A stretch of 64,000 nt of DNA from an uncultured bacterium (GTDB lineage Bacteria; Zixibacteria; MSB-5A5; CAIYYT01). Made by a program: the position numbers and the translations under genes. The first letter of the stretch is position 1. The number at the start of each line of letters is the position of its first letter. The notes under the pieces are model-generated. The model saw nothing but the letters and a program-made list of their open reading frames with translations. It made no database searches and was not told the DNA's origin. The stretch is taken from assembly GCA_963726455.1 (NCBI GenBank), contig CAVSCK010000005.1:64973-128972 (forward strand). The letters are read 5' to 3'. Shown in pieces: positions 12,873 to 64,000 of this stretch.

Positions 12873-12984
12873 AGGTACCTCTAATTTCAGTGTCGGCAAG
12901 AAGAATGCTGACAGATGTCGATTCTACAAACGGCTGTATAAAGCGCGATTCGGTTAGCTTAGTATACGCAATTTTGGCGAATTT

Positions 12985-42733: not shown

Positions 42734-43723
42734 ATGAGAAGAGCTGTATTGATCGCGCTTGCCATCGTTTCGTTGTCGTTCATCTCATTTCTGACATCGC
42801 CGCAACCCGCCACTGCCGCCGCGATTGTCGCCGATCACACGACGGTCGCGAAGTTCGCGCAGATTCCGCAGGAATATTTCGACCAGATTCGCGCCAATTA
42901 CCGGTTCTTCTATGGCCACACATCTCACGGCAGCCAGATATTGACCGGAATCGGCATGTTGGCGTACGAGTATCCGCTGCAATGCGGCTCGCCGTCATTC
43001 TTCGAGTACGGCGACGATCTTGGCGCCGCCGGAGACATTACCTGGGTGCAGCCGACGCGCGATTTTCTCAATTCCAACCCGGATTACAATGTCGTGATGT
43101 GGTCATGGTGCGGCGGCGTATCCGACAATACTGAGGCCGGTATTAACAGTTATCTCAACGCGATGGAGCAACTCGAAAACGAATTTCCGAATGTCCGATT
43201 CGTATACATGACCGGCCATCTCGACGGCACCGGCGCCGCAGGAAACCTGTATGCGCGGAACAATCAGATTCGCCAGTGGTGTGCCGCAAACGGGAAAGTG
43301 CTTTTCGATTTTGCCGACATCGAGAGCTACGATCCGGATGGCGCGTATTACCCCGACGGCAGCGACGCCTGCGAATGGTGCTATACTTGGTGCGCTACCC
43401 ACACCTGCACTGACTGCGGAGGAAGTTGCGCGCATTCGCATTGTTTCAATTGCTATCAGAAGGCCAAGGCGTGGTGGTGGATTATGGCGCGTGTCGCCGG
43501 CTGGAACACGGATCCGGTTGGCTGCGGAGACGCCAACTCGGACGGTGGCATTGATATCAGTGACGCGGTATTCCTGATTGCCTACATCTTTTCAGGCGGC
43601 CCGGCGCCAAATCCGCTCAATTATGGCGATGCCAACTGCGACGCAGCCATTGACATCTCCGACGCGGTCTACCTGATAAGCTACATCTTCGCCGGCGGCC
43701 CTGCCCCTTGTGCAAGTTGCTAG
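42734..43723 (+). CDS. secreted protein with Cys-rich N-terminal domain of unknown function and C-terminal dockerin-like tandem module
   Basis: Signal peptide; Cys-rich stretch CEWCYTWCATHTCTDCGGSCAHSHCFNCY; C-terminus [27 protein letters not shown]...[32 protein letters not shown]. Confidence 0.6.
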   Translation: MRRAVLIALAIVSLSFISFLTSPQPATAAAIVADHTTVAKFAQIPQEYFDQIRANYRFFYGHTSHGSQILTGIGMLAYEYPLQCGSPSFFEYGDDLGAAGDITWVQPTRDFLNSNPDYNVVMWSWCGGVSDNTEAGINSYLNAMEQLENEFPNVRFVYMTGHLDGTGAAGNLYARNNQIRQWCAANGKVLFDFADIESYDPDGAYYPDGSDACEWCYTWCATHTCTDCGGSCAHSHCFNCYQKAKAWWWIMARVAGWNTDPVGCGDANSDGGIDISDAVFLIAYIFSGGPAPNPLNYGDANCDAAIDISDAVYLISYIFAGGPAPCASC

Positions 43724-46026: not shown

Positions 46027-47856
46027 TTACACCGGCGGGCAGGCAGCGCATGGCACCGGTCCCCCGCCAAATATGTATTGAATAAGGTACACCGCGTCCG
46101 CGATGTCGATCGACTTGTCACAGTTGGGATCCCCGGCTGTGGCTGTGACCGGCGCCGGTCCCCCCGCAAAAATGTAATTTATGAGGTAGACCACGTCGGC
46201 GATATCGACTCCACCGTCACCGTTGGCGTCGCCGCAAGTGAATTCAACCAGAGTAGTCCCCCACCAAGTGCCCCAGCGCGTGTCAGCAGGGTTCGGTCCA
46301 ACCGGTGTCGCCGCATATTCCTGAATCGTCCAGAAGCTGGTGCTATCCTTGGGGTCTACGACTGTGGCACTAAAATCCCCCCAGCGAACCTCAGTTCCGC
46401 CGAAGGTCTTGGTATAGATGCCCTCGCCGGCCTTGATCGTTGCCACGGTGCTCGTCGTCCCGATTGGATCGGTTGACCTGCGGCCGGTGTAAGCCGCTTC
46501 GACAAAGATGTTGGGATTCGAATGCGAGAACCCGAGAAAGACATCATTCCCGGAATTGACTGCAATACTGGGAAAGAACAGAAAGTCATTCGTGCCCATA
46601 TCAACCACGCCCGATTGCACAATCGGATTCGGTAGCGTCGCCGGATCGAGTTCATACCAGAAGACGGAAACGTGGTTGGGAGAATTCACCGGCAGGCCTG
46701 CACTGTGCGTGCACCAAATCCTGCCGTTACGGAAGACGGCATTGAGCATACGCGAATCGTTGGTTGACACCAGTGTGGCTGTGCCCTGTTGCTTGGCGTC
46801 TGGCTGATTATTCGAGAAATTATGTGCTACCGAGAATAACCCCGAGCCGCCAATCGTCGAACCAGGCACAGCGGCCCAAACCGGCGCCGGTCCCGTACCG
46901 GTGATTTGTGTCAATCTGAGGAGAGCTACTCCTCCCGAGGTGAATCCGGCATTATCGACCAGATATAGTGTCGGCTCATTACCGAATGTCTGACAGACGC
47001 GAAGCGCGAAACCTGAACCGACATTGCCGAAATTGTCTGATCCCACCGGAAAACTCGTGAAGGTCAACGGTCCCCCGGCAAGCGCCGTCGATTTTTCAAT
47101 TACCCACATCGACGTTCCGGAGAAAGTATTCCCCGTCACTTTGAACATGTTGGCCGTAATGGCAATCCAGGTTCCATTATACCCGATGTCCGGATAATCA
47201 GCCCAGCTAATGTGCGAGGTGTCCGCAGGTATGCGGTAGAATTTCCAGGTCCCCATCGGATTGGCGCTGTCGCTGACCGCCATCACCACAGCGGAATTCA
47301 CGGTTTGGAAGTCCGCGATGGACGACGCATACCAACGGTTGACGCTCGGGTCGTACAGAACGTGGGGATCACTAACATTGGTCGAACCCGTTGGCGACCA
47401 GAATGTCGGATAGGAGATTGTACTCAGGATATTCCCAAACTTGTCCTGCACCCTGATTTGTGAATTCAGCATCGTCATCACCCGGTTCAGACTTACGGCG
47501 CCGTGCGAATCCGGAGGGATCACGTGAAGGTTATCGGGCAAGGCCTGGAAATTTCTGACTACCGGCGGCACCTGCATCGGCGAAAGAAATTGCTCTGTCC
47601 CCAGACTCCCTGCACTACCCAACTTACCCAGTGGCCCACCAACCTCTCTCGGCGCCGGCATCAGCAATAGCGGTTTTACTTCCTGCACCTCCGCGGTCTT
47701 TGCCAGCGGTGCCCTCGCCTCCATGTTCTCCAAGTCCTGCCAGCTCACCTGAGCTACCGGATCAATCTGCATTTGTTGTCCGGAGACGCCAAAACTTGCC
47801 GCAGTCAGCAACAGTATTAGAACGAGCGTCGCCCGCGACGTTTGCCATATCGACAT
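46027..47856 (-). CDS. secreted protein of unknown function (paralog of 48164-50620) with C-terminal dockerin-like tandem module
   Basis: ATG 47856 with AAGGAG upstream; signal peptide; ~500-aa N-terminal domain shared with the next gene (...RWGDFSATVVDP...WGTWWGTT); C-terminus CGDANGDGGVDIADVVYLINYIFAGG...[32 protein letters not shown]. Confidence 0.6.
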   Translation of the reverse strand: MSIWQTSRATLVLILLLTAASFGVSGQQMQIDPVAQVSWQDLENMEARAPLAKTAEVQEVKPLLLMPAPREVGGPLGKLGSAGSLGTEQFLSPMQVPPVVRNFQALPDNLHVIPPDSHGAVSLNRVMTMLNSQIRVQDKFGNILSTISYPTFWSPTGSTNVSDPHVLYDPSVNRWYASSIADFQTVNSAVVMAVSDSANPMGTWKFYRIPADTSHISWADYPDIGYNGTWIAITANMFKVTGNTFSGTSMWVIEKSTALAGGPLTFTSFPVGSDNFGNVGSGFALRVCQTFGNEPTLYLVDNAGFTSGGVALLRLTQITGTGPAPVWAAVPGSTIGGSGLFSVAHNFSNNQPDAKQQGTATLVSTNDSRMLNAVFRNGRIWCTHSAGLPVNSPNHVSVFWYELDPATLPNPIVQSGVVDMGTNDFLFFPSIAVNSGNDVFLGFSHSNPNIFVEAAYTGRRSTDPIGTTSTVATIKAGEGIYTKTFGGTEVRWGDFSATVVDPKDSTSFWTIQEYAATPVGPNPADTRWGTWWGTTLVEFTCGDANGDGGVDIADVVYLINYIFAGGPAPVTATAGDPNCDKSIDIADAVYLIQYIFGGGPVPCAACPPV

Positions 47857-48086
47857 AAGCTTGTCTCCTTTCATCCCTTTGGACACTTCTCTTGTTATAA
47901 AGAAACCGATTCGCTCCCTCACAGTTCCCTGTGATCGGTTGTCATGAGTCTTTCTGGCTCTACGATTAAGGTACGCGGCACCCTGCCCCATTTGTGGCGT
48001 CTAATTGACCTCCATAAACACAAGTTCCTGGCGGAGTAAGCGGGCTGATTTCTGGGGGCAAGAGGCGATTCTTAAGGGTCTGCGCT

Positions 48087-48163: not shown

Positions 48164-49020
48164 TCAACAGCCGGCACACGGAGCCGGACCGCCGGAGAAG
48201 ATGTACGCGATCAAGTAGACGGCGTCCGAGATGTCAATTGAATGATCACAGTTGGCATCTCCCGCCTCCACCGGATTTGGTGCCGGACCGCCAGAGAAAA
48301 TGTAGGCGATCAAATAGACAGCATCCGAAATGTCAACGCTGCCACTGCGATCGGCATCACCGCAAACGTAAGGCGGATCGACGACTCTAAGGTTGACCGC
48401 TACTGTGTCTGTCAACGCCGGAGCGCTGCCGTCCTGCAAAGCGATCGAGAAATAGAAGGTAGATTTATAGGTTGGAGTACCTGTGATCGTCCCGACCAGG
48501 CCATCATTAAACGTGAGGCCGTACGGCAAGTCTCCACCGACGAATGACCAGGTGTAGGGTGGAATGCCGCCCGAGTGCAGGAACTGGAATTCGTATGGCT
48601 TGTGATAATAGGCATCGGGCAGAGCTGGGTTCACATGCAGCAGTGGCTCGATGTGCAGGAATCCGTCGCATGCGTCGCCGACGCCGTCCGTATCCGAATC
48701 CCATTGATCATTGTTGCTCACCAGAGGACAATTGTCGCAGGCATCACCAAACAAGTCACCATCAGCGTTCACTTGCGACAAATTGGGCGTATATGGGCAA
48801 TTGTCGACTGCATTCAGAATGCCATCATTATCAATATCGGGATCGCAAACATCACCCAGACCGTCACCGTCAGTATCCTTTTGATTCGCGTTGGCCACTG
48901 TCGGACAGTTGTCGCAGACATCACCGATGCCGTCGTGGTCGGTGTCAAGCTGATTGGCATTTGCCGTCATCGGGCAGTTGTCCACGGTGTCTGCAACTCC
49001 GTCTCGATCCATATCTACCA
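48164..49020. repeat. copy A of a ~850-bp near-identical 3' coding module (TSP3 + Ig-like + dockerin-like)
   Basis: Long runs nearly identical to 51059-51920 when aligned by eye; encoded peptides differ only at scattered positions. Confidence 0.8.
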
Positions 49021-50620
49021 TAGTCGTTCCCCACCACGTGCCCCAACGGCTGTCATCGACGCCCGGACCGACTTTCATCCCCGCATATTCCTGAATGGTC
49101 CAGAAGCTCAGACTATCCATCGGATCTACCACGGTAGCGCTGTAGTCTCCCCAGCGCACGCGTGTGCCACCGAAATTCTTGGTGTAGGTCGACTCACCTA
49201 ATTTGAGCACCTTAATCGGCGCCATGGTGCCCAGCGGGTCGGATGCCTGGCGGCTGGTGTATGCCGCCTGCGCGTAGATCGTCGGATTGGAACGCGAAAA
49301 CCCAATCATCGCATCATCATTGGCATTGGCATTTATGCTCGGGTAGAACAGATATGTATTCGCGCCCTCATCCAGTACGCCCGATTGCACGATCGGATTC
49401 GGCATTGCCGTCGGGTCGAGTTGATACCAGAATACGGCATCGCGATTGGCTGAAGATACCGGCAAACCTGCGGCATGCGTGCACCAAATCTTGCCGTTGC
49501 GGAAGACTGCATTAATGATTCGCGAATCATTGGTTGTGATCTTGGTCGTGGTACCAAGCTGGGACGCATTGAGCATTGAGCCGTTGAAATTATTGGCAAC
49601 CGCGAACAGCCCGGATTCGGCAATAGTGGATCCCGCTGTCGCGTTCCAGACCGGCGCCGGTCCGGTGCCGGTTATCTCAGTTATGCGCAGTTGATGGATA
49701 CTGGAGATCGTGATATTGTTATTGTCAACCACATACAACTTCGGCTCTGAACCGTAGGTCTGACATACGCGCAGAGTCCAACCGTTGAATCCACCGAAGA
49801 TTCCTGATCCCACCGGAAAATAAGTGACTGTCAGTGGGCCGCCCGAAAGCGCTGTGGATTTGTCGACCACCCACATCGCTGGTCCCGCCTGAGATCCGCC
49901 GGCAACCGGAAACATATTTGCAGTCAGCGCGATCCAGGTGTCGTTATAGCCAATGTCCGGATAGTCCGCCCAGTTGATGTTGCTCATGTCTGCCTTGATC
50001 GTGAAGTACTTCCAGACGCCCATTGGATTACCATTGTCCGTCACCGCCAACAGCACTTCTGAACTCGCCGACTCGTAATTGGCGATGGAGGTGGCGTAAA
50101 ACCGCCCTGTGCCCGGATCGAACAGTACGCGCGGATCGCTTAGCGTTGAGGCCCCGACCGGCGCCCAGAATGCTCCGTACGAAATCGTCGAGAGAACCGT
50201 GCCCATGCGATTTTGCACCCGCACTTCGGAATTCAGGAATGTCATGATGTATGAAACACCGACGCCGCCGTCGGTATCGGGAGGAATAACAGCGCCGTTA
50301 TCCGGAATCGCCTGGAAACTTCTCACCACCGTGGGCGCTTGCACATTCTGGCTTACACCTGCGACACTAAGCGCATCCAGAATGTTGTTTTGACCGGTCG
50401 GTTTTGCTATCTCTGTTTCTGCAGGCATCAGCATCAGCGGCGGCACTCTGTGAACCTGCTTTTGCGCCGGCGTCATATTCTGGTCTATGGCCATCAGGTC
50501 ATTCCAGCTCACCGATGCAGCAGGTGACAGAGTCACTCTCTGACCGGTCACAGCCAATAGTGATGTGATTGAGGTCAACGAAAGAAACAGAAATACAACG
50601 AACATTCGCTTTGCACTCAT
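48164..50620 (-). CDS. secreted protein: unknown N-terminal domain (paralog of 46027-47856), thrombospondin type-3-like repeats, Ig-like domain, dockerin-like tandem module
   Basis: Signal peptide [23 protein letters not shown]; TSP3-like DxDxDGxGDxCDNCP units; Ig-like region [21 protein letters not shown]; C-terminus ...[32 protein letters not shown]. Confidence 0.65.
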
Positions 50621-51058: not shown

Positions 51059-51920
51059 TCAGCACCCCGCACATGGCGCCGCGCCACCACTGAAGATGTA
51101 TTGGATCAAGTACACCGCATCCGAGATGTCGGCTGTATGATCGCAGTTGGCGTCTCCCGCCTCTGCCGGGTTGGGCGCCGGACCACCGGCGAAGATGTAA
51201 GCTATCAAATAGACAGCGTCCGAGATGTCGACGCTGCCGCTGTGGTCGGCATCCCCGCAAACGTAAGGCGGATCGACGACTGAAAGAGTGAGTGAGACCG
51301 TGTCTGTCAACGCCGGGACGCTGCCGTCCTGCAGAGCAATCGAGAAATAGAAAGTAGATTTATAGGTCGGTGTACCGGTGATCGTACCGGTCAAACCATC
51401 ATTAAACGTGAGGCCGTATGGCAAATCCCCGCCTACAAAAGTCCAGTTATATGGGGGCGTGCCGCCGGCGTGCAGAAACTGGTAGGTATATGGCTTGTGG
51501 TAGTAGGCATTGGATAATATAGGATGCAGGTTCAGTTCGGGCTCGATGTGTACTGAGTCGTCGCACCAGTCGCCGAGTCCGTCCGCATTTGAGTCCCACT
51601 GATCGTTGTTCGCCAAAAGCGGGCAATTATCGCAGGCGTCGCCGAGGCTATCGGCATCGCTGTTCTCCTGACCCGGATTGACGGCGTACTTGCAATTGTC
51701 GGCGGCGTTAGGCAATCCGTCGTTGTCAATATCGGGATCGCATGCATCGCCCAGGCCGTCGCCGTCGACGTCGTTCTGAGTCGCATTGACCACAGTCGGG
51801 CAGTTGTCACAGGCATCGCCGATACCGTCATTATCGGTATCGAGCTGGTTGCTGTTGGCCAGACTCGGGCAATTGTCAACCGTATCAATAACCCCGTCGG
51901 CATCGAAATCGCCCACAACG
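51059..51920. repeat. copy B of the ~850-bp near-identical 3' coding module
   Basis: See copy A at 48164-49020. Confidence 0.8.
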
Positions 51921-53452
51921 CCGACCTTCAAATTGGCAATCATTGTTGAGGCGCATGACGACGAGAGGACTTTAACTTCCACCAAAGTTGGCGAACCGGT
52001 GTAGGAATTGCTGTTCGGAGCACTGGCCCCGTTAAATGTCTTGTTAATCCATAGATCGCCGGCTTGCGTGGGCGGATTGTTGTCCGCACACTCGATATCG
52101 ACCCAGCGGTGAGTATCGTTCGAGTTATTGTTCTGGGTGTCATCGATATGCCAGATCGCGATTCCGCATCCGGGAAGGTAGGCATCAAAGCCAACTTGTT
52201 GCCGATTCTCTACGAGAAAGTATTGAGTACTGGGCAATACGCTGCTTCTGAGCTTAAAGCATGACTGATTGGTTTCCGCTTGATCGAGATGAACGCCGTA
52301 GGCATTGACTGACGGCTGAGTCACCGGAAGCCAACCTTTCCGGATCTTACACCAGGCACTCATGTGCGCCGGAGATGCACCGTTCTGGCCCGGACCATTC
52401 CAACTTCCTCCCGCCATCAAACACCAGTTGCCGATTCCATCGCTGCTGTAATCAGTGTCATAAAGATCGGGAAGTCCGATGGCATGCCCGTATTCGTGCG
52501 CGAAGACGCCGATCGTTGAACGTACGCCCGACCAGACCATTTCCGGTTCCATGGTGTAACCACTGACCGTCTTGCCGCTCGCCGAGATGGAGGGGGAAAG
52601 ATGACCGGAATGTGACCAGGGATAATTGGTATAACCAGCTTCGGCGCCCGGCCCGACGTGTACGATAAACAGACCGTCTACGATGCCGTCATTGTTGTTA
52701 TCGAATGGCGCAAAATCGACTCCCGCGTCGCGGGCTGCGGTCACGGCCTCGGCGGCCAATATGGCGGCCCGCCCCATCCCGGAGGCATAGCCATAGTAGT
52801 TTCGATTCTGGCTCGCGGTGTAAAATCCTACGACCGTGCCCGTCACCGTGAAGGCATCGTATGATGTCTCCAGATAGAATTTGTGCAAGGAACCCAAATC
52901 GAAATTCGCGCCGTTGAATAACGAGTCGAAATCGCTTGGCGGGTAAGTATTGCCTTCATCCGGATACTTGATGAGAATCACCAGCACGTTGTTTGTCGTC
53001 GTTCTGGTCGCGCGCTGAGTCAGAGTCGGATCATCCGGGAACGAATAAAAGGACGGATCAGGTCTTCCGACCGTACTGGTGGCTGCCAGACTAAGCGGCA
53101 TCTGGGCCAAAAAACTTCTCTCGGCGCCGGATCGCCTGTCCGCCGCGGTGGCTCTGAAATTCGATGCCTTGAGGTTTCCGTCTGCATCCAGAACGGCATA
53201 GCAATACCAGCCGTCAGTATCCCGGGCGACAGTGTATCCGTCCTCGGTAATCATACGTCCGTTTCTTTCATCACCAATGACCCTAAGAGTGAGCTTTGAT
53301 ACTCCGTCCGGCTGGGTCACTTCAAACGCCCGATCGGGATTTGCCGGGACAGACAGCGCAGGTTGAGCAATCAAGACCACGCAAAAGGCCATCATCGTCA
53401 GCAAGTGCCCGAGCATCGGCCAGGCGTGAGCAATAGCGCTTCTCTGCTTCAT
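51059..53452 (-). CDS. secreted M6-family zinc metalloprotease with TSP3-like repeats, Ig-like domain and dockerin-like tandem module
   Basis: Signal peptide; HExxH site [19 protein letters not shown]; C-terminal ~280 aa almost identical to those of 48164-50620; ends ...[32 protein letters not shown]. Confidence 0.8.
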
Positions 53453-53810: not shown

Positions 53811-56800
53811 CTAACACCCTGCACACGGCGCCGGTCCACCGGCGAAGATGTACTGTATCAGATAGACCACGTCTGAGATGTCCACCGCCTGATCGCAATT
53901 GGCATCACCGGCCGCAATCGGATTCGGCGCTTGCCCGCCGGCGAAAATATACTGAATGAGAAAGACAGCATCCGAGATATCAATTGCCCCGTCACCGTTG
54001 GCATCACCGCAAAGGTAAGTCGGCACAGTTTCGTAGATGGTCAGGAACGTATCAGCAGGAATCGACGTAAATACCCGAACGGTATCAGAAGGCCAGCGAG
54101 CAATCAGAGAGTCGATCATCGTGTTCGACCCCAGTCCGAATGCGGCTATCGGCGGGCTCTGATTCCATCCCCCGGAAACCGTCGTGATTTCGCGAATCTG
54201 CTGCTTGCCTCCAGCAACGATGCGGACTCGCGCTCCGATGCTATTCTTGTTGGATGTCGTGCCGACAAGTTTCGCCTGCAGCCAATGATTATTGTCGCCA
54301 ATCTCGTTTCGAAGGAGCCGACTGCGGCAATTGTATCCGTACATATTCGACAGGTAAATGTCCAGATCGCCGTCGCGATCATAATCGGCCCAGACGCCAC
54401 CCCGACCGGTGCAACCCAAATCGGTAAGAGGATTGATCAGGTTTCCGGTATAGGCCACGGCAAAGTTACCGCTCCCGTCGTTGCGGAAGAGCTTGTTGGC
54501 TTCATTGGAACCGTTCGTTACGAAAAGATCCAAATCACCATCATTGTCGTAATCGCCCCACGCACAGCCCTGCGTGTAATCCCAAGCAGTCATCACGGCG
54601 GGCGTCACGTCCGTGAAGACTCCGTTCCCATCGTTACGAAACAACTTGTCGCTCAGCCCCGACCAGTAGACGGCAACAAACAGGTCGAGATCTCCGTCGT
54701 TGTCATAGTCGCCCCAATCCGCTGCGAAACTATGGGAGGCAATCGCCAGAGCTGGAGGTGTGACGTCGGTAAAGGAGCCGCCGTCATTGCGCAACAGTCT
54801 GTTCGGACCGTTGAAGTTTACGATGAATACGTCGGGGTCATTGTCGTTATCATAGTCGGCCCAAGTCGACATATGAGTACTAAACGTATCTCCCAGGGGG
54901 CCGCTAGTAGCGTCAACGAATGTTCCAGCGCCGTCGTTACGAAACAGCTTATTCGCTGAAGTCAGTTGCGATAGATACAGATCGAGGTCACCGTCCGTGT
55001 CGTAGTCGACCCAGGCGGCACCACTGCCATTGTTAGCATCATTTAGAGGCGCGCTGGAAACATCTGTAAAGGCGCCTCCGCCATCGTTGCGATAAAGCTT
55101 GTTAGCTCGGCTATCGTTGCGGGAGACATAGATGTCGACATCTCCGTCGTTGTCGTAGTCGCCCCAGACTCCGACTATTCCAGTCGCCGCAGCGCCCATG
55201 CTATTTGGAGTAACCTCCACGAAAGAGCCGGCATCATTCCTGAACAGATGGCTGGAGTCCGGGTCGTACATCTGCGTCAGTAGAAGATCGAAATCGTTAT
55301 CATTATCGTAATCCGCCCATGCTGCCGACGAGATTGAGCCGTATCGTGACAAAACTCTGGGAGTGACGTCGTTCCATTCTGGCGGTGCTGAAATGAATGG
55401 AAACGCGGCCAGCAAATTCGGTCTGCCGCCGATGTTCCCAGCCGGAGGCGTGACTTGTGCCGTAGCGGTATTTTTGAGAACCGTGCGCAGAATCGCTGGA
55501 GTGAGGGTCCCGCCCAGTCCGCCGACTCCCTTCCAGCGGCCCACACAGCACGCCACTGCGCCGGCAACAATTGGAGATGCGCTTGACGTGCCCGCGAAGA
55601 CGCTGGTGTATGCGTAATCAGTGCCATCGGCATTGTACAGATCTCCATAACCCGTGGTCACGACGTTCTCGCCCCAACCTTGAAGATCATAGCGAGTGCC
55701 GTAGCTGGCAAACGACAGTCGCTGCAGGTCGCCTTCCACATACGTGCCACCCGGATAAACACCACTTGCTCCGACAACAATTGCTCCCGATCCATTTGGA
55801 TGCCAGTTGAGCATGTCAGTATCATAGGCGCCATTTCCGCCGGCTTCGACCACATGAATCCCGTTTGTTACCGCGTTTACAATGGCGGTGAAGACGGGAT
55901 TCCATGACTGATTGTTCACGTCGCCCCACCATTCTATGGGGATATAAGACCCTCCGCCGTAGTCCCATTGCTGTTCGAGCAGGATAATATCGCCGGCATT
56001 CAGGCTGGCAGTCGCCAGCGCAATGGCGCCAGCAACATTCCAGCTCGGCGTGGGACTTCCATAGTAAGTGCCGCATGTCTTGAGATTCGCACCGTAGCAG
56101 ATTCCGGTAGTGCCCCAGCCGTTATTGTCCGCGACCATAACTCCGATGACGGCAGTCCCATGATCGTCGTCGCTGAAAGGATCGACGACATTGCTGTTTA
56201 TCTGCGACCCCACTACCTTACTGATGTCTGCATGATTGTAGTTCCAGCTATATTCCAGGTCACAGACCGTGACCCCGGAACCGTTACCCCCTGTTTGCGT
56301 CCACGCGTATTGCGCATCAATCCCCACCGGAGCTGAACTCGCCGGACGCATGTATCGCTGGCCGGTGTCATAAGGGGGCGGTATCATCGGCAGCATCATT
56401 GGTTTGGGAACCGGACGCGCCCACATGATTTCGGGTAGAAACTCGAGATCGCGGCAGAGCCCCCAAAGATCATGGCCTTTGCCAAGGCGTAATCGGTAGA
56501 TGTTGTTGAGATTGTACACCGGCTGTCCCGAGTTCTGCTCGCCTACGGCTTGCATCTCATCGAGCTTCTCCTCCGAAACATTGCACGTGCGCTGCCATTC
56601 GACCGGCCCCACCGCGGCAAGCGTGCTCAACACGGAACTCAGGGACCTACCAGTAATATCCACCGGCACTCCCAGTCGTAATCTTACAGTCAGGTATGGC
56701 TCGAAGATCACCTCGATAAGGTCATCTTCATGTCCATATTCTCCGACGGCCTGCCTGCTCACCGACTGCGGCCCGACCGCCAGTGCCTCCGGATCCACGG

Positions 56801-56909
56801 CGATACTATTTCCGAAAGTCGGGGTGATAATCACGAGCCCTACCAGGAACGCCGCCACCAGTGAGCAGACGTGCGGAACTGTTGACCTGCAATTCACAAT
56901 AACCTCCAT
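53811..56909 (-). CDS. secreted S8 subtilisin-like serine protease with FG-GAP/VCBS repeats, ASPIC/UnbV-like domain and dockerin-like tandem module
   Basis: Signal peptide from ATG 56909 (alternative start 57035); S8 triad regions (VTVCDLEYSW, DDDHGTAVIG, GTSSASPIVAG); multiple WGDYDNDGDLDLFV repeats; C-terminus [26 protein letters not shown]...[32 protein letters not shown]. Confidence 0.85.
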   Translation of the reverse strand: MEVIVNCRSTVPHVCSLVAAFLVGLVIITPTFGNSIAVDPEALAVGPQSVSRQAVGEYGHEDDLIEVIFEPYLTVRLRLGVPVDITGRSLSSVLSTLAAVGPVEWQRTCNVSEEKLDEMQAVGEQNSGQPVYNLNNIYRLRLGKGHDLWGLCRDLEFLPEIMWARPVPKPMMLPMIPPPYDTGQRYMRPASSAPVGIDAQYAWTQTGGNGSGVTVCDLEYSWNYNHADISKVVGSQINSNVVDPFSDDDHGTAVIGVMVADNNGWGTTGICYGANLKTCGTYYGSPTPSWNVAGAIALATASLNAGDIILLEQQWDYGGGSYIPIEWWGDVNNQSWNPVFTAIVNAVTNGIHVVEAGGNGAYDTDMLNWHPNGSGAIVVGASGVYPGGTYVEGDLQRLSFASYGTRYDLQGWGENVVTTGYGDLYNADGTDYAYTSVFAGTSSASPIVAGAVACCVGRWKGVGGLGGTLTPAILRTVLKNTATAQVTPPAGNIGGRPNLLAAFPFISAPPEWNDVTPRVLSRYGSISSAAWADYDNDNDFDLLLTQMYDPDSSHLFRNDAGSFVEVTPNSMGAAATGIVGVWGDYDNDGDVDIYVSRNDSRANKLYRNDGGGAFTDVSSAPLNDANNGSGAAWVDYDTDGDLDLYLSQLTSANKLFRNDGAGTFVDATSGPLGDTFSTHMSTWADYDNDNDPDVFIVNFNGPNRLLRNDGGSFTDVTPPALAIASHSFAADWGDYDNDGDLDLFVAVYWSGLSDKLFRNDGNGVFTDVTPAVMTAWDYTQGCAWGDYDNDGDLDLFVTNGSNEANKLFRNDGSGNFAVAYTGNLINPLTDLGCTGRGGVWADYDRDGDLDIYLSNMYGYNCRSRLLRNEIGDNNHWLQAKLVGTTSNKNSIGARVRIVAGGKQQIREITTVSGGWNQSPPIAAFGLGSNTMIDSLIARWPSDTVRVFTSIPADTFLTIYETVPTYLCGDANGDGAIDISDAVFLIQYIFAGGQAPNPIAAGDANCDQAVDISDVVYLIQYIFAGGPAPCAGC

Positions 56910-57113
56910 GCAAATAGACAGTATCACGGTCAATCCGTCCGGCAGACGGCTCGATCGCGTGCCCCTGTAGTAGTTGTTGTCAGCAGAGATGTCGTTGTCT
57001 ATGTTAAAGATACTGCCCTTACGGAGAAATGTCAATTGGAAAAGTGGAGTCGCGGGTACTGATTGCCGGTTCTTCTAACCGTTGATTGGGCATTCGGTTG
57101 CGCTCATAGGCAC

Positions 57114-58112: not shown

Positions 58113-59637
58113 CTAATTGGGCTTAATCGCAAAATACTTCACATTGCCTTTGTAATCGTAACCGATCATCGCTATCGCCTTCGTCCGCCCCTGCAACTGC
58201 GACTTGATACGGTCGAAATCACCGGCCGTCTTAATCGTTTCGTGATTGATCTCGAACAGGATCGTGCCGGGCGTAATGCCTTCGATATCTGCCGGACTCC
58301 CCTGATCAACACCAACCACCATTACACCATCGTGGAAGTCAACGCCGTACTGGTCGGCCAAGTTCTGACTGGCAGTCTGTATCGACATTCCCAGCCAACC
58401 GGCATCGACCGACTGTTGATCGTTACGGGTTGGGCGCTGCGGCATCGTTCGCTGGGCCTCTGCCATTCCGGCGTCCCGGTCACCGATCGTGACCTTCACG
58501 TCCGTCGGCCTGCCCTTGCGATATACTTCCAAATCTATCACACTTCCCGAATGTTCACTGGCAACGAGGTAACGGAAATGGTTCTGGTCTTCGACATTGA
58601 CGCTATTGAATTTCGTGACGATGTCGCCGTCATGCAATCCGGCTTGCTGCGCCGGCGAATCCGACCTTACCTGCTCGATCAGCACGCCGCGCGGACTCGG
58701 CAATCCGTTCGCCTCGGCCATGTTGTTGTCGATATCTTTCAGCGTCACGCCCAGCCAGCCACGTTCGACTTTGCCCTTGGTCATCAGGTCGGTCACCACC
58801 GATTTGACGAAGTTAGACGGAATCGCAAAGCCGATCCCCGCCGATTGCCCGGAGGAGGACGCGATAGCCGCATTAATGCCGATCACATAGCCGTCAAGAT
58901 TGACCAGCGGCCCTCCTGAGTTACCAGGGTTGATCGCTGCGTCGGTTTGTATATAGTCCTGAAAATCAGGTGTGTCTTCACCGAAGTTTAGACCCCTGCG
59001 ACCCTTCGCCGATACCACACCCACTGTCACCGTGCGGTCGAGTCCCTGTGATGGGAACGGATTACCTATCGCCATCACCCATTCGCCTACTTTGATCGAG
59101 TCGGAGTCTCCCAACTCAATGTATGGATAACCGCTGCCGGGTATCTTCAGAGACCGCCAGGTCGCTCGCAGCATCCTCGCCCACTATCTTCGCTTTGACA
59201 TCGGAACGATCCGCCAGCGTAATGGTCACATCCCGAGCACCTGCAATTACATGGTGGTTGGTCAGAACATAGCCGTCTTCCCTAAAGAAGAAACCGGTGC
59301 CCATCGACACCTCGCGTGGATTATCACCTTGCCAACCCCAAAACTGCATCCACCGACGCTGCGACGGGGTAAGCTGTTCGACCCGTTCGGCGCGGATGTT
59401 AAGCACGGCATCGCGTACTTTCTCCACCACTCCGACGAACGGTGATTTGCCTTCCTGGGTAATCGGATAGATTGATTTGGGAGCAGGCGTAGCGCGGGCG
59501 AACTGCGTTTGGCTGGCCGCGGTGTTGACCCAACCGGTGTTGCTGGAGATAACAAAGCCGATTACGACACCAACCAATACAAATGACAAGATTACACCCC
59601 AACGTCTAAGCGAGGAATAAACGGACACACCCTTCAC
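58113..59637 (-). pseudogene. htrA: HtrA/DegP serine protease (two PDZ domains), interrupted by one frameshift
   Basis: ORF 59116-59637 has the N-terminal protease half with His (TNHHV); ORF 58113-59174 has Asp, catalytic GNSGGPL and two PDZ domains; frames meet at ...SDLAV / [10 protein letters not shown] near 59150-59165. Confidence 0.8.
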
Positions 59638-59980: not shown

Positions 59981-62152
59981 TTACGATTTTACCGTAAAGT
60001 GGTAGGCGCGGGAGTCAAGATTCCCCAGCGAGAAATACAGCCCCTCACGAAGTTCCTCTGTGGTCGTGATGATTTCCTCATCCGTAAAAACATCAACCAT
60101 ATTTACTTTTGTCCCACGGTAGCCGTATGCCTTAAGGTCAACCTGCACAACTACTTTAGTAGCACCGGATCGTGTGCGCCGGAATGGCTGTGACGGCGAG
60201 GAATTAAGCAGGTAGAACATCCCACTCTTCTCCCCCTTGTGGATGACAGCCCGTACACTCGGGTGGGAAGTCTTGATTCTGAACGATACGCCGAGATCAG
60301 AAAGTATGCTCTTCAGGAAACTGATCTTGGCATGGTTGCCCTGGGACGAGCAATCGAATGACAACAAAATGATAGTTCCCTTGAAACGATTTATCCGTAT
60401 TCCCACGGTCTTGCCGGAATAGGTCGCCAGCTTCTTGCTCTTCTTCTCGGTCGAAACAATCGAACCGTAGACATAGCCCGGGAATTCTTCTTCGCCGGCG
60501 ACGACATTGCCAATCTTGCCGAGCGGTTGCGTCTTGCAGTGAATGGCGCTGGCCAGAACCTGGCAGTTATCCAAGTTGGAGTCGTACTTCGGCAGCAATC
60601 CGACTAGAATCAAATTCGTGCCTTCTCTTGCCTTCTCCAGCAGGAACTCTTGCTTGTCGGCATCCATGATCTCGCTTACGGGGACGACAACATTTTTGAG
60701 TTTGTCGAACGAAAGCGGATTATCGAGGTCGGGAATCACAAAGTCCTGCTTGATCCGGTCGAGGTCTCTTCCCAGTTCCGGCATGGTGAAATCGTTCAGC
60801 GTCTGCACGTAGCCGAATGGGCCGGCGTCCTCCAACAATGAAACCCAATTGTGCACCTTGTAGCAGGCCATGCCCAGCGAGGTTTGCGGCTCATAGGCGC
60901 CGATATCGGTTTGTGTCGTGAAGGTCATCAACTTGCGCACGATTTCGTAAGATTCCTGGATAGCGCCGTCCGCTCCCAGAGGCGAATCATACCAGTTTTC
61001 GGACTCCACGAACTTGTACTGATTGAATCCCTTGATCCCACCGGCCAGTCCCAGAGTGAGCAGATATTTGGTCGCATCACCGGATATATGGAAATGCTTT
61101 TTCGATGTCGTCGAGTCAGAGGTGCTATTGCCGACCGACACGGATGATCCCCACGGGAACTCCGAATTGGCACGCAGATAGCGAATCTTTTGCAAAGTAG
61201 CCGCCGAGGTGCGGTCCCAACCGATACTCACCGTCGGGAAGATTTCGCCATCGGAATCGATTATCGGCGTCATTGGCGCCTGGAACGATTTGTGAAACGC
61301 CAACGTCTGATAGAACAACGGCTCACAGGAATAGCTCTTATACTGCTCGATGAGATGTGCCGCGTACTCTTTAATCAGATGTTCTTTGAAACGGAACCAG
61401 TCCAGAAGCTTCGTCAACGGCCGATCTTTGGAAATGATAAAATCACGCGGCGGCTGCACCGACGCAAAATCAGCTGCGCTTTCACCGTAGGCAAGATTAA
61501 GCTTCTTGATAGTCTCGTACCGCTTCTCCAAGAACTGCGGATAAAGAGTGGTGACAACATAGGGGTTGTAGTCGGACTTCCATGGATAGGGATCGCCGCC
61601 GAAGTAGTTGCCCGCGTCCAACTCCACCAGGAACAACGGACCGCGCGGGTAGATGTAATTTTTCACGATTTCCGTCAGCCCGTTGAAATAATGCTTAACG
61701 AAATTCTCCATGCGAGGATGCATATTCGAGGGGTACGAAAATTCGGGCAGGCCGTTCTGCAGATCCGTCAAGGTGAGGGCGCCTTCGGAATCGAGCGAAA
61801 AGATCTCCGGATACTTGGATAAGAAAATCGGCAGTCCGCCATTTTCCACTTCGGCCAGAACCATCGGCCCGGGGCGCAAGATGATCTTAAACCCGAATTC
61901 ACGAGCCAGTTCGATAAACACTATCAAATCCTTGGCAGGATCAGTGTAACCTGAGAAATCAAACTCGCGGCGAATATCTTCGTGGATCGACCAGGGAACG
62001 GCAGTCGAAATGACCTTGAAGCCGGCGCGACGGATGCGCTCAAAACAAATCGACCAATAACGCTTACTTACCCTAAAGTATTGCATCTCAACGCAATAGG
62101 GCAAGTATTCCTCTTTGCCGATTGTAAATTTATGTCCCGTTACTGCTATCAT
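59981..62152 (-). CDS. glycoside hydrolase family 35-like beta-galactosidase (cytoplasmic, no signal peptide)
   Basis: N-terminal TIM-barrel region VPWSIHEDIRREFDFSG...ILRPGPMVLAEVENGGLP follows the GH35 pattern; the region looks more AT-rich than its surroundings. Confidence 0.7.
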   Translation of the reverse strand: MIAVTGHKFTIGKEEYLPYCVEMQYFRVSKRYWSICFERIRRAGFKVISTAVPWSIHEDIRREFDFSGYTDPAKDLIVFIELAREFGFKIILRPGPMVLAEVENGGLPIFLSKYPEIFSLDSEGALTLTDLQNGLPEFSYPSNMHPRMENFVKHYFNGLTEIVKNYIYPRGPLFLVELDAGNYFGGDPYPWKSDYNPYVVTTLYPQFLEKRYETIKKLNLAYGESAADFASVQPPRDFIISKDRPLTKLLDWFRFKEHLIKEYAAHLIEQYKSYSCEPLFYQTLAFHKSFQAPMTPIIDSDGEIFPTVSIGWDRTSAATLQKIRYLRANSEFPWGSSVSVGNSTSDSTTSKKHFHISGDATKYLLTLGLAGGIKGFNQYKFVESENWYDSPLGADGAIQESYEIVRKLMTFTTQTDIGAYEPQTSLGMACYKVHNWVSLLEDAGPFGYVQTLNDFTMPELGRDLDRIKQDFVIPDLDNPLSFDKLKNVVVPVSEIMDADKQEFLLEKAREGTNLILVGLLPKYDSNLDNCQVLASAIHCKTQPLGKIGNVVAGEEEFPGYVYGSIVSTEKKSKKLATYSGKTVGIRINRFKGTIILLSFDCSSQGNHAKISFLKSILSDLGVSFRIKTSHPSVRAVIHKGEKSGMFYLLNSSPSQPFRRTRSGATKVVVQVDLKAYGYRGTKVNMVDVFTDEEIITTTEELREGLYFSLGNLDSRAYHFTVKS

Positions 62153-62285
62153 AATAAAAACAGGCGTACAATTTATGCAAAATGGACAATAAGTCAACCA
62201 AATAAATGTATATTGCCGACAATTCCCTCCAATTCGATATACGGCAATACATTAGAGACTTCGCACCATGGCTGCCATTTTGGCA

Positions 62286-62321
62286 TAAAAAAAGCTCCTC
62301 GTGACAGATCACGAAGAGCTT
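62286..62321 (-). terminator. rho-independent terminator downstream of the 62341-63330 gene
   Basis: Imperfect stem AGCTCCTCGTGA / TCACGAAGAGCT; on the minus strand followed by TTTTTTTT. Confidence 0.7.
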
Positions 62322-62340: not shown

Positions 62341-63330
62341 TTACTTCAACAGTAACATCTTCTTAGTTTCGGTGAAGTCTCCTGATGACATGCGATAGAG
62401 GTAGACACCGGAGGCCACCGAAGAACCATTCTGGTCGTTGCCGTCCCATTCGACGCGTTTGTAGCCGGCTTTCTCGTAATCGTCAAGCAAAGTCCTGACC
62501 TTCTGGCCAAGCATGTTGAACACTTCAACTTTCACATTGCCGGATTTGGGAATCGCAAACTGAATTGTGGTCGAAGGGTTGAACGGATTGGGCACATTCT
62601 GGCTCAACTCATACTTCGTCGGAAGATTCAAATCAGCATTGCCTTCCACCGGTAACGCGATGTCGCATGGAGGAGTGAACTGCTTGCACATGGCGAATTT
62701 CGGGGTAGACTTCTTTGTCACTGTGTTGGACGCGGAGACGCCCGGTACTGGGGGCAAAGTCCAGGGAAAGATATTGGTCTCAATGAACGGGCCGGCAGGC
62801 GGATACAAAGAGACTGAGTCCAGCCGTACCACTTGCCGAACGGTGTCAATCATCTTGATGATTATACTGCCAAGATATTGTCCGGTATCACCGGTACAGG
62901 CCGGAATAGGGGATTCACCCGAAAAGTCAGCCCAACCGAACAAGAGTGAGTCTCCCGCCGCCGACACCTTTAATTGCATGGAGCCGCCGAACAGGATGGC
63001 ATTATTCTTTTTGAAGTTCTTGCTGAACTTGAGTTGTTGACCGTTCTGCCTCACTCCGAAATTGAACCCGCCAACGGGGTAATCGTTAAACAGATAGACC
63101 GGTACGTAGAAAGAATCGCCCTTGGAAGTCGGCGAAAACGTTATACAGACGGGGCATCCAATTCGAAGCGTATCGCAAATACCCAGATCCAACTCCTTCA
63201 AGTTGGTGCTGTCGGCGTCCGCGATGCCTCCGTGTACCACATAGCACGTGTCGACCGCGTAGACGCTGGCGCCCGGCACCACCGCCGCAACCGATAGCAC
63301 GAATAGCACTAGCAAAACCTTCAACTTCAT
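62341..63330 (-). CDS. secreted protein with candidate cohesin-like domain and T9SS C-terminal sorting domain
   Basis: ATG 63330 with GGAGG upstream; signal peptide; cohesin-like segments GDSFYVPVYLFNDYPVGGFNFGV and LFGWADFSGESPIPACTGDTGQYLGSIIIKM; C-terminus NVPNPFNPSTTIQFAIP...GVYLYRMSSGDFTETKKMLLLK. Confidence 0.55.
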   Translation of the reverse strand: MKLKVLLVLFVLSVAAVVPGASVYAVDTCYVVHGGIADADSTNLKELDLGICDTLRIGCPVCITFSPTSKGDSFYVPVYLFNDYPVGGFNFGVRQNGQQLKFSKNFKKNNAILFGGSMQLKVSAAGDSLLFGWADFSGESPIPACTGDTGQYLGSIIIKMIDTVRQVVRLDSVSLYPPAGPFIETNIFPWTLPPVPGVSASNTVTKKSTPKFAMCKQFTPPCDIALPVEGNADLNLPTKYELSQNVPNPFNPSTTIQFAIPKSGNVKVEVFNMLGQKVRTLLDDYEKAGYKRVEWDGNDQNGSSVASGVYLYRMSSGDFTETKKMLLLK

Positions 63331-63518
63331 TTTACCTCCTATGTAGGGAAACATATTCCATTCACTGCCTGACCTTCGCATTCCAATCTCTCCTTCCTAC
63401 CGCGTCAAGGATAACAGCGTTATACCTTAACTTTCTCCACTACCCACGAACGCAAAGTATTCCGAATATATATCCGTTTCCGAAACTCCAGTCAACAATT
63501 TTTTCAAAAATAATTGCC

Positions 63519-64000
63519 TCAGCAACCCGCGCATGGCGCCGGACCGCCGGAGAAAATGTACGATATCAGATAAACAGCATCGGAAATATCAATCGAGCCG
63601 TCGCAGTTCACCTCTCCAGTGCTATATGGCGAAGGCGCCGGGCCGCCGGAGAAGATATAGGCGATCAAATAGACGGCGTCGGAAATATCAACCCCGCCAT
63701 CTCCGTTAGCGTCGCCGCAGACTGCGGGACTGCCGACGGTGACGCACGCACCCTGAAACGCCCCCTGATAAGTAAATAAACCGTGCGTGAGCGACTGCGT
63801 GAAGCTGGAATAAACCGTGTCGCGAATGCAGATTTTCTGGTTTTTCAACGCATTAGTAACCTGGAATCTGACTTTGCAAATCACGCCGCTGCCTGCCGCC
63901 AGAGGCGCGTGTCCCCCGCCCATGTTCGCTCTCAGGTCAAGGGTGGCTACCTTGCCGCCGTTGTAGATGTTGCTGAAGATCGCCTGCTCAAAGCCGGCGC
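63519..64000 (-). CDS. C-terminal part of a protein with cohesin-like segment followed by dockerin-like tandem module (5' end beyond window)
   Basis: Frame stays open to the window end (...FEQAIFSNIYNGGKVATLDLRANMGGGHAPLAAGSGVICKVRFQVTNALKNQKICIRDTV...); ends [26 protein letters not shown]...[32 protein letters not shown]. Confidence 0.5.
   Translation of the reverse strand, partial: AGFEQAIFSNIYNGGKVATLDLRANMGGGHAPLAAGSGVICKVRFQVTNALKNQKICIRDTVYSSFTQSLTHGLFTYQGAFQGACVTVGSPAVCGDANGDGGVDISDAVYLIAYIFSGGPAPSPYSTGEVNCDGSIDISDAVYLISYIFSGGPAPCAGC

What the first reader, a model, noticed from the sequence alone, without database searches (positions are those of the whole stretch)
63519..64000. Partial ORF at the window edge carries a cohesin-like segment and a dockerin-like module (adaptor-scaffoldin-like)
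Upstream of its dockerin-like C-terminus the open frame encodes GSGVICKVRFQVTNALKNQKICIRDTV, resembling the last strands of a cohesin domain. A protein with both cohesin and dockerin would act as an adaptor, allowing hierarchical assembly. The gene continues beyond position 64000, so only the tail is visible.
Basis: inference. Interest (0 to 1): 0.6.

Follow-up and report, generated by a model that had tools for sequence, protein, structure and literature searches.

The report
Protease tail with cohesin-fold and dockerin
The cut-off gene at the window edge is very probably the tail of a secreted subtilisin-type protease that ends in a cohesin-shaped module plus a dockerin, next to a gene for a surface-anchored cohesin-like protein: a non-cellulosomal member of the known cohesin-dockerin docking system, not a true scaffoldin.

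Summary
On the minus strand, window 63519-63998 is an open frame of 159 codons that runs off the window edge. Residues 95-148 are a Pfam type I dockerin (34.4 bits, cut-off 22.9).

The 93 residues upstream get no Pfam Cohesin match. They do belong to a rare ~150-residue module family:
- exhaustive HMMER against 1.8 billion proteins: E 2.3e-16;
- independent profile built without the window sequence: E 6.7e-11;
- hhalign between the two subfamilies: 99.6% probability.

The "adaptor scaffoldin" reading is only partly right. The closest homologue is 60% identical over all 159 residues with no gaps. It and three other relatives, three of the four in conserved gene order, are ~800-residue enzymes built as S8 subtilase-PKD-cohesin fold-dockerin, with one cohesin-fold module each.

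The downstream gene (62341-63330, minus strand) encodes a T9SS-sorted protein. A 43%-identical homologue of it passes Pfam's Cohesin threshold, which suggests a surface anchor. Actual binding is inferred, not shown.

This is a new member of a known kind, of moderate interest.

The parts
63519..63998 (-). Partial CDS: the last 159 codons plus the TGA stop (63519-63521). The N-terminus lies beyond the window edge.
   Evidence: Translation. 60% identity with no gaps to the last 159 residues of the 801-residue P0121, with the same C-terminus ...APCAGC.
63720..63998 (-). C-terminal ~62% (93 residues) of a cohesin-fold module ('X' module). It includes the family signature RANMGGGHAPLAAGSGVICKVRFQV.
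   Evidence: family membership. (cohesin fold of the family model). (mapping onto predicted strands).
63522..63719 (-). Type I dockerin with two near-identical calcium-loop/helix repeats ([22 protein letters not shown] and [22 protein letters not shown]) and four conserved Cys (C94, C131, C156, C159). The Pfam match itself spans 63555-63716.
   Evidence: Pfam Dockerin_1, 34.4 bits against GA 22.9. PDB dockerin hits. Alignment with the six other dockerins of the window.
63331..63518 (.). 188-bp intergenic spacer between the partial CDS and the downstream gene. It holds GGAGG 4 nt before the ATG at 63330. No terminator-like or sigma-70-like site was found.
   Evidence: Sequence; scan.
62341..63330 (-). 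Downstream gene, 329 residues: signal peptide, cohesin-like N-domain (about 62731-63195) and a T9SS C-terminal sorting domain (about 62344-62592). Candidate cell-surface anchor for dockerins.
   Evidence: Por_Secre_tail / TIGR04183 / FlgD_ig. The 43%-identical homologue P0138 passes Pfam Cohesin at 31.2 bits against GA 24.1. Orthologues sit downstream of S8-PKD-X-Doc genes in L001, L002 and L004. The protein's own AF2 model is poor.
62292..62321 (-). Terminator-like hairpin (13-bp stem plus a T run) just after the downstream gene. It is consistent with the two genes forming one transcription unit.
59981..62197 (-). GH35/GH42-like gene. It is the third member of the gene order conserved with locus L002.
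   Evidence: Pfam. L002:6933-9131 has the same domains in the same position.

Best explanation
The open frame is the 3' end of a gene of about 800 codons. The gene encodes a secreted subtilisin-type (S8) protease with a C-terminal cassette of PKD, a cohesin-fold module and a type I dockerin.

The dockerin most likely plugs the enzyme into cohesin modules. The first candidate is the protein encoded immediately downstream, which has a cohesin-like N-domain and a T9SS sorting domain. That protein would be exported and fixed to the outer surface, so the protease would be displayed on the cell.

The protease's own cohesin-fold module would offer a further docking site for another dockerin. The partner could be a second copy of the same protein (head-to-tail multimers, as shown for Ruminococcus bromii Amy4) or one of the six other dockerin-bearing proteins in this window, three of which carry recognisable peptidase domains (S8 or M6).

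Shown here: the dockerin; membership of the upstream segment in a module family with a cohesin fold; the architecture of the homologues; the conserved gene order; the T9SS tail.

Inferred: the unseen N-terminal S8-PKD part; every binding event; surface display.
For: - Dockerin above the Pfam threshold.
- The upstream 93 residues match P0121 at E 2.3e-16 in an exhaustive search. The whole tail is 60% identical, without gaps, to the P0121 C-terminus.
- P0121 = Peptidase_S8 + PKD + X + Dockerin. Its S8 catalytic motifs DSGV, HGT and GTSFAAP can be read.
- Gene order is conserved. L001 has two S8-PKD-X-Doc genes followed by a T9SS-tailed gene 46% identical to the window's neighbour. L002 has S8-PKD-X-Doc, then cohesin-like+T9SS, then GH35-like, which matches three consecutive window genes. 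L004 shows the same pair.
- The PKD-X-dockerin cassette is present in nearly all of the two dozen X-module proteins found at 20 loci.
- The window tail belongs to that family independently of the alignment used for the model (E 6.7e-11; hhalign 99.6%).
- The neighbour's homologue P0138 has Pfam Cohesin above the cut-off plus a T9SS tail.
- No terminator lies between the two genes, and a strong one follows the second.
- All seven dockerins in the window are near-identical, so they could share partners.
- Precedents: Amy4 carries a catalytic module, a cohesin and a dockerin and binds itself (PMC4611034). Dockerin-bearing S8 peptidases with a CTD-anchored cohesin scaffold were proposed for Cloacimonadota (PMC8542988).
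Against: - The N-terminal ~640 residues are not in the window, and the contig could not be extended. The S8-PKD part therefore rests on homologues and gene order.
- No X module reaches Pfam's Cohesin cut-off. Identity to solved cohesins is only 10-18%.
- The X profile's only PDB sequence hits are cohesins, but at E about 1.
- The model is of homologue P0128, which is 25% identical to the window tail, not of the window protein itself.
- The neighbour's own N-domain has no Pfam Cohesin hit and a poor AF2 model, pLDDT 45. Its orthologue profile does not find cohesins, and it does not align significantly with the X family.
- The T9SS-tailed cohesin-like neighbour follows the X-Doc gene in only 3 of the 20 other loci.
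- The linker between the X module and the dockerin is only a few residues long. That could mean a fixed structural dyad and not a free docking site.
- No binding data exist.
Confidence: 0.6

Rival explanations
1. The cohesin-fold module is only a structural or ligand-binding beta-sandwich. It could be a spacer, a substrate-binding module, or a support that packs against the adjacent dockerin, like the X module of type II X-dockerin dyads. It does not bind dockerins. Only the dockerin mediates assembly.
For: - No Pfam Cohesin hit in any X module.
- Only 10-18% identity to real cohesins.
- X is always fused to the dockerin through a very short linker and always follows a PKD domain, which suggests a fixed cassette.
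Against: - The only PDB sequences the X profile touches at all are cohesins.
- Cohesin plus dockerin in one enzyme has a proven self-binding precedent (PMC4611034).
Confidence: 0.27
2. The X module binds its own dockerin within the same chain. This would be an intramolecular clasp or autoinhibited state, keeping the dockerin masked until it is displaced or processed.
For: Invariant adjacency of X and the dockerin. The X subfamily and the dockerin type change together, as seen when P0124, P0127 and P0128 are compared with the window and P0121.
Against: - The linker is only about 3-5 residues. From general knowledge of cohesin-dockerin complexes, that seems too short to reach the canonical binding face. 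This was not tested here.
- The co-variation can be explained by shared ancestry.
Confidence: 0.08
3. One reading: a non-catalytic adaptor scaffoldin with one or more cohesins and a dockerin, bridging enzymes to an anchoring scaffoldin.
For: - Cohesin fold plus dockerin in one chain.
- One distant family member, P0124, has two PKD-X units before its dockerin and no recognised catalytic domain.
- Five proteins of the metagenome loci (loci L085, L087, L088, L091 and L094) lack a match to my S8 profile.
Against: The four closest homologues all carry a Peptidase_S8 domain and a single X module: P0121, L001 gene 1, the L002 gene and the L004 gene. Three of them lie in conserved gene order with the window.
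Confidence: 0.05

Closest known systems
Ruminococcus bromii Amy4 (amylosome enzyme with catalytic module, cohesin and C-terminal dockerin; PMC4611034)
   Same: One secreted enzyme chain carries a catalytic domain (in the homologues here), a single cohesin-type module and a C-terminal dockerin. A separate single-cohesin protein with a cell-surface anchor is also encoded (Sca2 there, the T9SS-tailed neighbour here).
   Different: - The enzyme class is S8 protease, not GH13 amylase.
- The host is a diderm of the FCB group (probably Zixibacteria). The candidate anchor uses a T9SS sorting domain, not a sortase signal.
- The cohesin-fold module is too divergent for Pfam and sits directly against the dockerin.
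- Self-binding is demonstrated for Amy4 and untested here.
Cellulosome-like system proposed for Cloacimonadota 'Ca. Stygibacter' (PMC8542988)
   Same: An FCB-group bacterium with dockerin-bearing S8 peptidases and a cohesin protein carrying a T9SS-type C-terminal domain for surface attachment. The system is non-cellulolytic and aimed partly at polypeptides.
   Different: There the cohesins sit in one 3,755-residue multi-cohesin scaffoldin. Here the anchor candidate has a single cohesin-like domain, and the protease itself carries a cohesin-fold module.
Adaptor scaffoldins of cellulosomes (e.g. Acetivibrio cellulolyticus ScaB, R. flavefaciens ScaC; PDB 4uyp, 5lxv)
   Same: Cohesin fold plus dockerin in one polypeptide. 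The best structural matches of the X model are type I cohesins of these scaffoldins.
   Different: Adaptor scaffoldins are non-catalytic and usually hold several cohesins. The homologues here are enzymes with a single module, and there is no Pfam-level sequence membership.
Non-cellulosomal cohesin/dockerin proteins of archaea and bacteria (Archaeoglobus fulgidus cohesin, PDB 2xdh; Peer et al. 2009 as cited in PMC9012536 and PMC8542988)
   Different: Different lineage and partner domains. Binding was verified for the archaeal pair but not here.

Membership tests
Type I dockerin (Pfam PF00404) | Sequence match to the family model above the curated cut-off | tested here: met
   34.4 bits against 22.9, E 2.5e-8, residues 95-148, profile positions 2-56 of 57.
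Type I dockerin (Pfam PF00404) | Two tandem ~22-residue segments, each a Ca2+-binding loop (D/N at positions 1, 3, 5, 9, 12) followed by a helix | tested here: met
   Direct reading shows DANGDGGVDISD+AVYLIAYIF and EVNCDGSIDISD+AVYLISYIF. Position 1 of the second loop is E, not D. Aligned with solved dockerins.
Type I dockerin (Pfam PF00404) | Ca2+-dependent binding to a cohesin | not testable with these tools
   Needs binding assays or multimer modelling.
Cohesin (Pfam PF00963) | Sequence match to the family model above the curated cut-off | tested here: not met
   No hit on the visible 93 residues even at E 10. No hit in the full modules of P0121 or the L001, L002 and L004 genes. P0124 gives only E 0.056.
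Cohesin (Pfam PF00963) | Nine-stranded flattened beta-sandwich (jelly-roll) fold of solved cohesins | tested here: met
Cohesin (Pfam PF00963) | Binds a dockerin | not testable with these tools
   No complex prediction or assay was available.
Adaptor scaffoldin | Non-catalytic protein whose role is to bridge (cohesins plus dockerin, no enzyme domain) | tested here: not met
   The window lacks the N-terminus. The closest homologue and the syntenic relatives all carry Peptidase_S8 with an intact catalytic triad.
Adaptor scaffoldin | Repeated cohesin modules | tested here: not met
   There is one X module per protein in all homologues found at the 20 loci. The exception is the distant P0124, which has two.
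Subtilase (Peptidase_S8) with C-terminal extension | S8 catalytic domain in the same polypeptide | tested here: inconclusive
   The domain would lie beyond position 64000. It is present in P0121 (E 1.2e-32) and in the L001, L002 and L004 genes (E 1e-39 to 1e-45). The contig could not be extended.
T9SS-anchored cohesin protein (downstream gene 62341-63330) | T9SS type A C-terminal sorting domain | tested here: met
   TIGR04183 42.3 bits against 23; Pfam Por_Secre_tail 32.1 against 27; FlgD_ig 34.7 against 27.
T9SS-anchored cohesin protein (downstream gene 62341-63330) | Cohesin domain | tested here: inconclusive
   For: the 43%-identical homologue P0138 scores Pfam Cohesin 31.2 against 24.1; the L002 orthologue gives E 0.09; the A3 profile's top PDB hit is a cohesin at E 0.42. 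Against: no hit on the window protein itself; AF2 pLDDT 45, whose Foldseek hits are mostly cohesins but at E 0.03 or worse; the A8 profile finds no cohesin; hhalign to the X family gives 0.4-8.7%.

The most novel reading that the evidence does not exclude
The dockerin-bearing enzymes of this organism have no T9SS sorting domain of their own. They might cross the outer membrane by piggyback. In the periplasm, the dockerin would bind the cohesin-like domain of the co-transcribed T9SS-tailed protein. The folded complex would then be exported and anchored together. The protease's own cohesin-fold module would let further dockerin enzymes join, building a surface 'proteosome'.

The data neither support nor exclude the export step. 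They show only a locally conserved gene pair, a cohesin fold, a dockerin and a T9SS tail.
Probability: 0.05. Interest if true: 0.7.

Novelty: new member of a known kind. Interest (0 to 1): 0.38.

Why it matters
Cohesin-dockerin assembly is best known from cellulosomes of Gram-positive bacteria. This locus adds a protease-centred case in an uncultured diderm lineage (probably Zixibacteria).

- The enzyme itself carries a cohesin-fold module that standard domain models miss.
- A T9SS-sorted cohesin-like protein is encoded next door.
- Seven dockerin-bearing proteins lie within 64 kb. Three have recognisable peptidase domains (S8 or M6) and a fourth has a weak M6-like match.

If binding is confirmed, these bacteria would build surface multi-protease complexes by the cellulosome principle.

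In practice, the PKD-X-dockerin cassette is a sequence family that could be added to domain databases, so that cohesins in such genomes are no longer under-counted.

Tried and rejected
- **Extending the contig.** An exact 32-mer from the window end was absent from genome contigs and metagenome contigs. Exact-protein look-ups of three window proteins found nothing.
- **First homology search.** The dockerin dominated it. The upstream coverage of most hits turned out to be unrelated N-domains. Only P0007, P0064 and P0056 aligned weakly.
- **Spurious hits.** Four of the six hits in the exhaustive search (P0122, P0123, P0125, P0126) are low-complexity repeat proteins and were discarded.
- **Profile search with A1.** It found only four proteins.
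- **Neighbour N-domain.**
  - The accepted run gave pLDDT 45, so its fold hits count only as a hint.
  - The orthologue-only profile A8 did not find cohesins in the PDB.
  - hhalign of A3 and A8 against the X family was not significant.
- **Unavailable resources.** The afdb50 fold library was not on the machine. Peer et al. 2009 (PMC3035643) is not held. No paper mentions both Zixibacteria and dockerin.
- **Plus-strand ORFs under the region** (63533-63709 and 63817-63966) are short, Arg/Pro-rich mirror frames, and the homology evidence for the minus-strand frame explains the region. They were rejected.
- **Other modules in the window.** No other X-type or neighbour-type module occurs in the window.

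Full report
**1. What is in the sequence**

The feature lies on the minus strand. Translating window:63519-63998:- gives 159 sense codons ending in TGA (63519-63521), and the frame is open to the window edge. The other two frames are full of stops.

Pfam places a type I dockerin at residues 95-148 (E 2.5e-8, 34.4 bits, cut-off 22.9). The best PDB sequence matches are dockerins from cohesin-dockerin complexes. Read directly, it has two near-identical loop-helix repeats, [21 protein letters not shown] and [21 protein letters not shown].

The 93 residues upstream give no Pfam or NCBIfam hit, even at E 10.

**2. Recovering the missing part**

The contig could not be extended. A 32-mer from the window end is absent from the genome and metagenome collections. 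Three window proteins are not on record as exact sequences.

A first homology search with the whole tail returned 932 hits. The dockerin drove nearly all of them, and several carried Zixibacteria names. The upstream segment matched almost none of them.

I then searched the 93 upstream residues alone against 1.8 billion representative proteins. Two hits are real:
- P0121: 801 residues, E 2.3e-16.
- P0124: 713 residues, E 3.5e-5.

The other four hits are low-complexity repeat proteins.

P0121 is built as Peptidase_S8 (183-471), PKD (502-579), an unassigned ~150-residue module, then a dockerin. The whole window tail aligns to the last 159 residues of P0121 at 60% identity. There are no gaps, and both end in APCAGC.

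**3. Gene order**

| Locus | Source | Genes in order |
|---|---|---|
| L001 | P0121's contig | two tandem S8-PKD-X-dockerin genes (37% identical to each other), then a 357-residue T9SS-tailed protein |
| L002 | GTDB MAG | S8-PKD-X-dockerin (789 residues), cohesin-like+T9SS (294 residues), GH35-like (732 residues) |
| L004 | Zixibacteria MAG | the same first two genes |
| Window | - | partial ORF, 62341-63330, 59981-62197 |

- The L001 T9SS-tailed protein is 46% identical (E 3e-103) to the window's downstream gene at 62341-63330.
- The L002 order matches all three window genes.
- In the window, no terminator-like site lies between the partial ORF and the downstream gene. A 13-bp hairpin with a T run follows the downstream gene. 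The pair is probably co-transcribed.

I therefore infer, at about 85-90%, that the unseen part of the window gene encodes a signal peptide, an S8 subtilase and a PKD domain. The catalytic motifs (DSGV, HGT, GTSxAxP) are intact in the homologues.

**4. Is the upstream module a cohesin?**

I aligned eight copies of the module, including the window tail (A2).

- By sequence, the profile touches only two PDB sequences. Both are R. flavefaciens cohesins, but at E about 1.
- AlphaFold2 on the P0128 copy, with A2 as the alignment, gave a confident model (pLDDT 86.5, pTM 0.77).
- Foldseek against the PDB: the top 50 hits are all cohesins, with E down to 1.9e-9 and TM 0.61-0.79.

The window tail belongs to this family independently of the modelling alignment:
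- An HMM built only from the other subfamily (A6) hits the tail at E 6.7e-11.
- hhalign between the two subfamilies gives 99.6% probability and E 1.5e-24.

Mapped onto the model, the window shows the C-terminal 62% of the module. The quoted peptide is the long strand, the loop after it and the next strand.

Membership of the Pfam Cohesin family by sequence was tested and not met. I call it a cohesin-fold module.

**5. How general is the architecture?**

A metagenome scan with the module alignment gave 17 further loci. I annotated them with home-made profiles.

- Nearly every X module is preceded by a PKD domain and followed, within a few residues, by a dockerin.
- The N-terminal part matches the S8 profile in most proteins.
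- Five of the proteins (loci L085, L087, L088, L091 and L094) have no S8 match to my profile.
- There is one X module per protein. P0124, which has two, is the exception.
- The cohesin-like T9SS-tailed neighbour follows only in L001, L002, L004 and the window. The pairing is therefore a feature of the subclade closest to the window, not of the whole family.

**6. The downstream gene**

It encodes 329 residues, starting from the ATG at 63330 with GGAGG upstream. It has a signal peptide, an N-domain and a T9SS type A sorting domain.

Evidence that the N-domain is a cohesin:
- It is homologous to the N-domains of many ~260-residue 'domain + dockerin' proteins.
- It is 43% identical to P0138, a Zixibacteria protein that passes Pfam Cohesin (31.2 bits against 24.1) and also has the T9SS tail.

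Evidence that leaves this open:
- There is no Pfam hit on the window protein itself.
- The AF2 model is poor (pLDDT 45). Its fold hits are mostly cohesins but not significant.
- One profile's top PDB hit is a cohesin at E 0.42, while the orthologue-only profile finds none.
- It does not align significantly with the X family.

I rate 'cohesin + T9SS tail' as probable but not settled.

**7. Context**

The window holds seven dockerin-bearing genes:

| Gene | Recognised domains |
|---|---|
| 9951-12899 | TSP_3 + dockerin; weak M6-like match (E 0.005, below cut-off) |
| 51059-53452 | M6 peptidase |
| 53811-57035 | S8 / FG-GAP protein |
| 48164-50620 | TSP3 / He_PIG protein |
| 42734-43723 | none recognised |
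| 46027-47991 | none recognised |
| 63519-63998 (this tail) | see above |

Their dockerins are near-identical and share four cysteines. No other X-type or neighbour-type module occurs in the window.

**8. Mechanism**

The best-supported reading is a secreted S8 protease whose dockerin attaches it to cohesins. The first candidate is the co-transcribed T9SS-anchored protein, which would display the protease on the cell surface. The protease's own cohesin-fold module would provide a second docking site, giving self-multimers or mixed enzyme complexes.

Each element has a published precedent:
- R. bromii Amy4 combines a catalytic domain, a cohesin and a dockerin. Its cohesin binds its own dockerin, and Sca2 anchors it to the surface (PMC4611034).
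- In Cloacimonadota, dockerin-bearing S8 peptidases and a cohesin scaffoldin with a T9SS-type C-terminal domain were proposed to form a cellulosome-like complex (PMC8542988).
- Non-cellulosomal cohesins and dockerins are widespread, and the archaeal pairs bind (PMC9012536, citing Peer 2009 and Haimovitz 2008).

**9. Verdict**

- Observation: confirmed.
- Interpretation: partly supported. Cohesin fold plus dockerin is right. 'Adaptor scaffoldin' is not, because the homologues are single-module enzymes.
- Novelty: a new member of a known kind. It is a divergent cohesin-fold family, on proteases of an uncultured FCB-group lineage, that standard domain models miss.
- Interest: moderate.

Noticed in passing
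window 58113-59637 (-), shift near 59149-59153: An HtrA/DegP-like serine protease is split into two overlapping ORFs in different frames. ORF 59116-59637 ends ...[17 protein letters not shown], and ORF 58113-59174 reads ...[19 protein letters not shown]. Deleting one T in 'gtc t ctg' would restore the HtrA motif DLAVLKIPGSG. This is either a one-base assembly error or a real pseudogene.
   Followed up: partly
window 9951-12899(-), 42734-43723(+), 46027-47991(-), 48164-50620(-), 51059-53452(-), 53811-57035(-), 63519-63998(-): Seven genes in 64 kb end in near-identical type I dockerins. They include an M6 peptidase, a gene with a weak M6-like match, an S8 / FG-GAP / ASPIC protein and TSP3 / He_PIG proteins. 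No recognised glycoside hydrolase carries a dockerin, so the system looks protein-directed and not cellulolytic.
   Followed up: partly
C-termini of the seven dockerin genes, e.g. window 63522-63719 (-): All seven dockerins share four cysteines in fixed positions: C just before GDAN, N-C-D in the second calcium loop, and P-C-x-x-C at the very C-terminus. This suggests two disulfide bonds that clasp the module. The pattern also recurs in many hits.
   Followed up: no
proteins P0008, P0026, P0029, P0034, P0035, P0036, P0071, P0130-P0137: A family of small (~250-270 residue) secreted proteins consists only of a signal peptide, a domain homologous to the neighbour's cohesin-like N-domain (motif DSIGVPIYIWADDTLGGFS) and a dockerin. 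These look like minimal 'cohesin-like + dockerin' connectors. None has a Pfam Cohesin hit.
   Followed up: partly
window 62292-62321 (-): A strong terminator-like hairpin (13-bp stem, T run) sits 20 nt after the stop of the T9SS-tailed gene. None lies in the 188-bp spacer upstream of that gene.
   Followed up: partly
L084 5681-7201 and 7514-8500; L001 55-2412: In L084 the S8-PKD-X-Doc gene is followed by two T9SS-tailed genes whose N-domains do not match the neighbour profile. In L001 and L092 the S8-PKD-X-Doc gene is tandemly duplicated.
   Followed up: no
P0124, P0127, P0128: The second X-module subfamily is followed by an atypical Cys/His-rich dockerin-like tail (e.g. CHGDPACDGQLDIVDLVETVNVSFRG). 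The module subfamily and the dockerin type change together.
   Followed up: no
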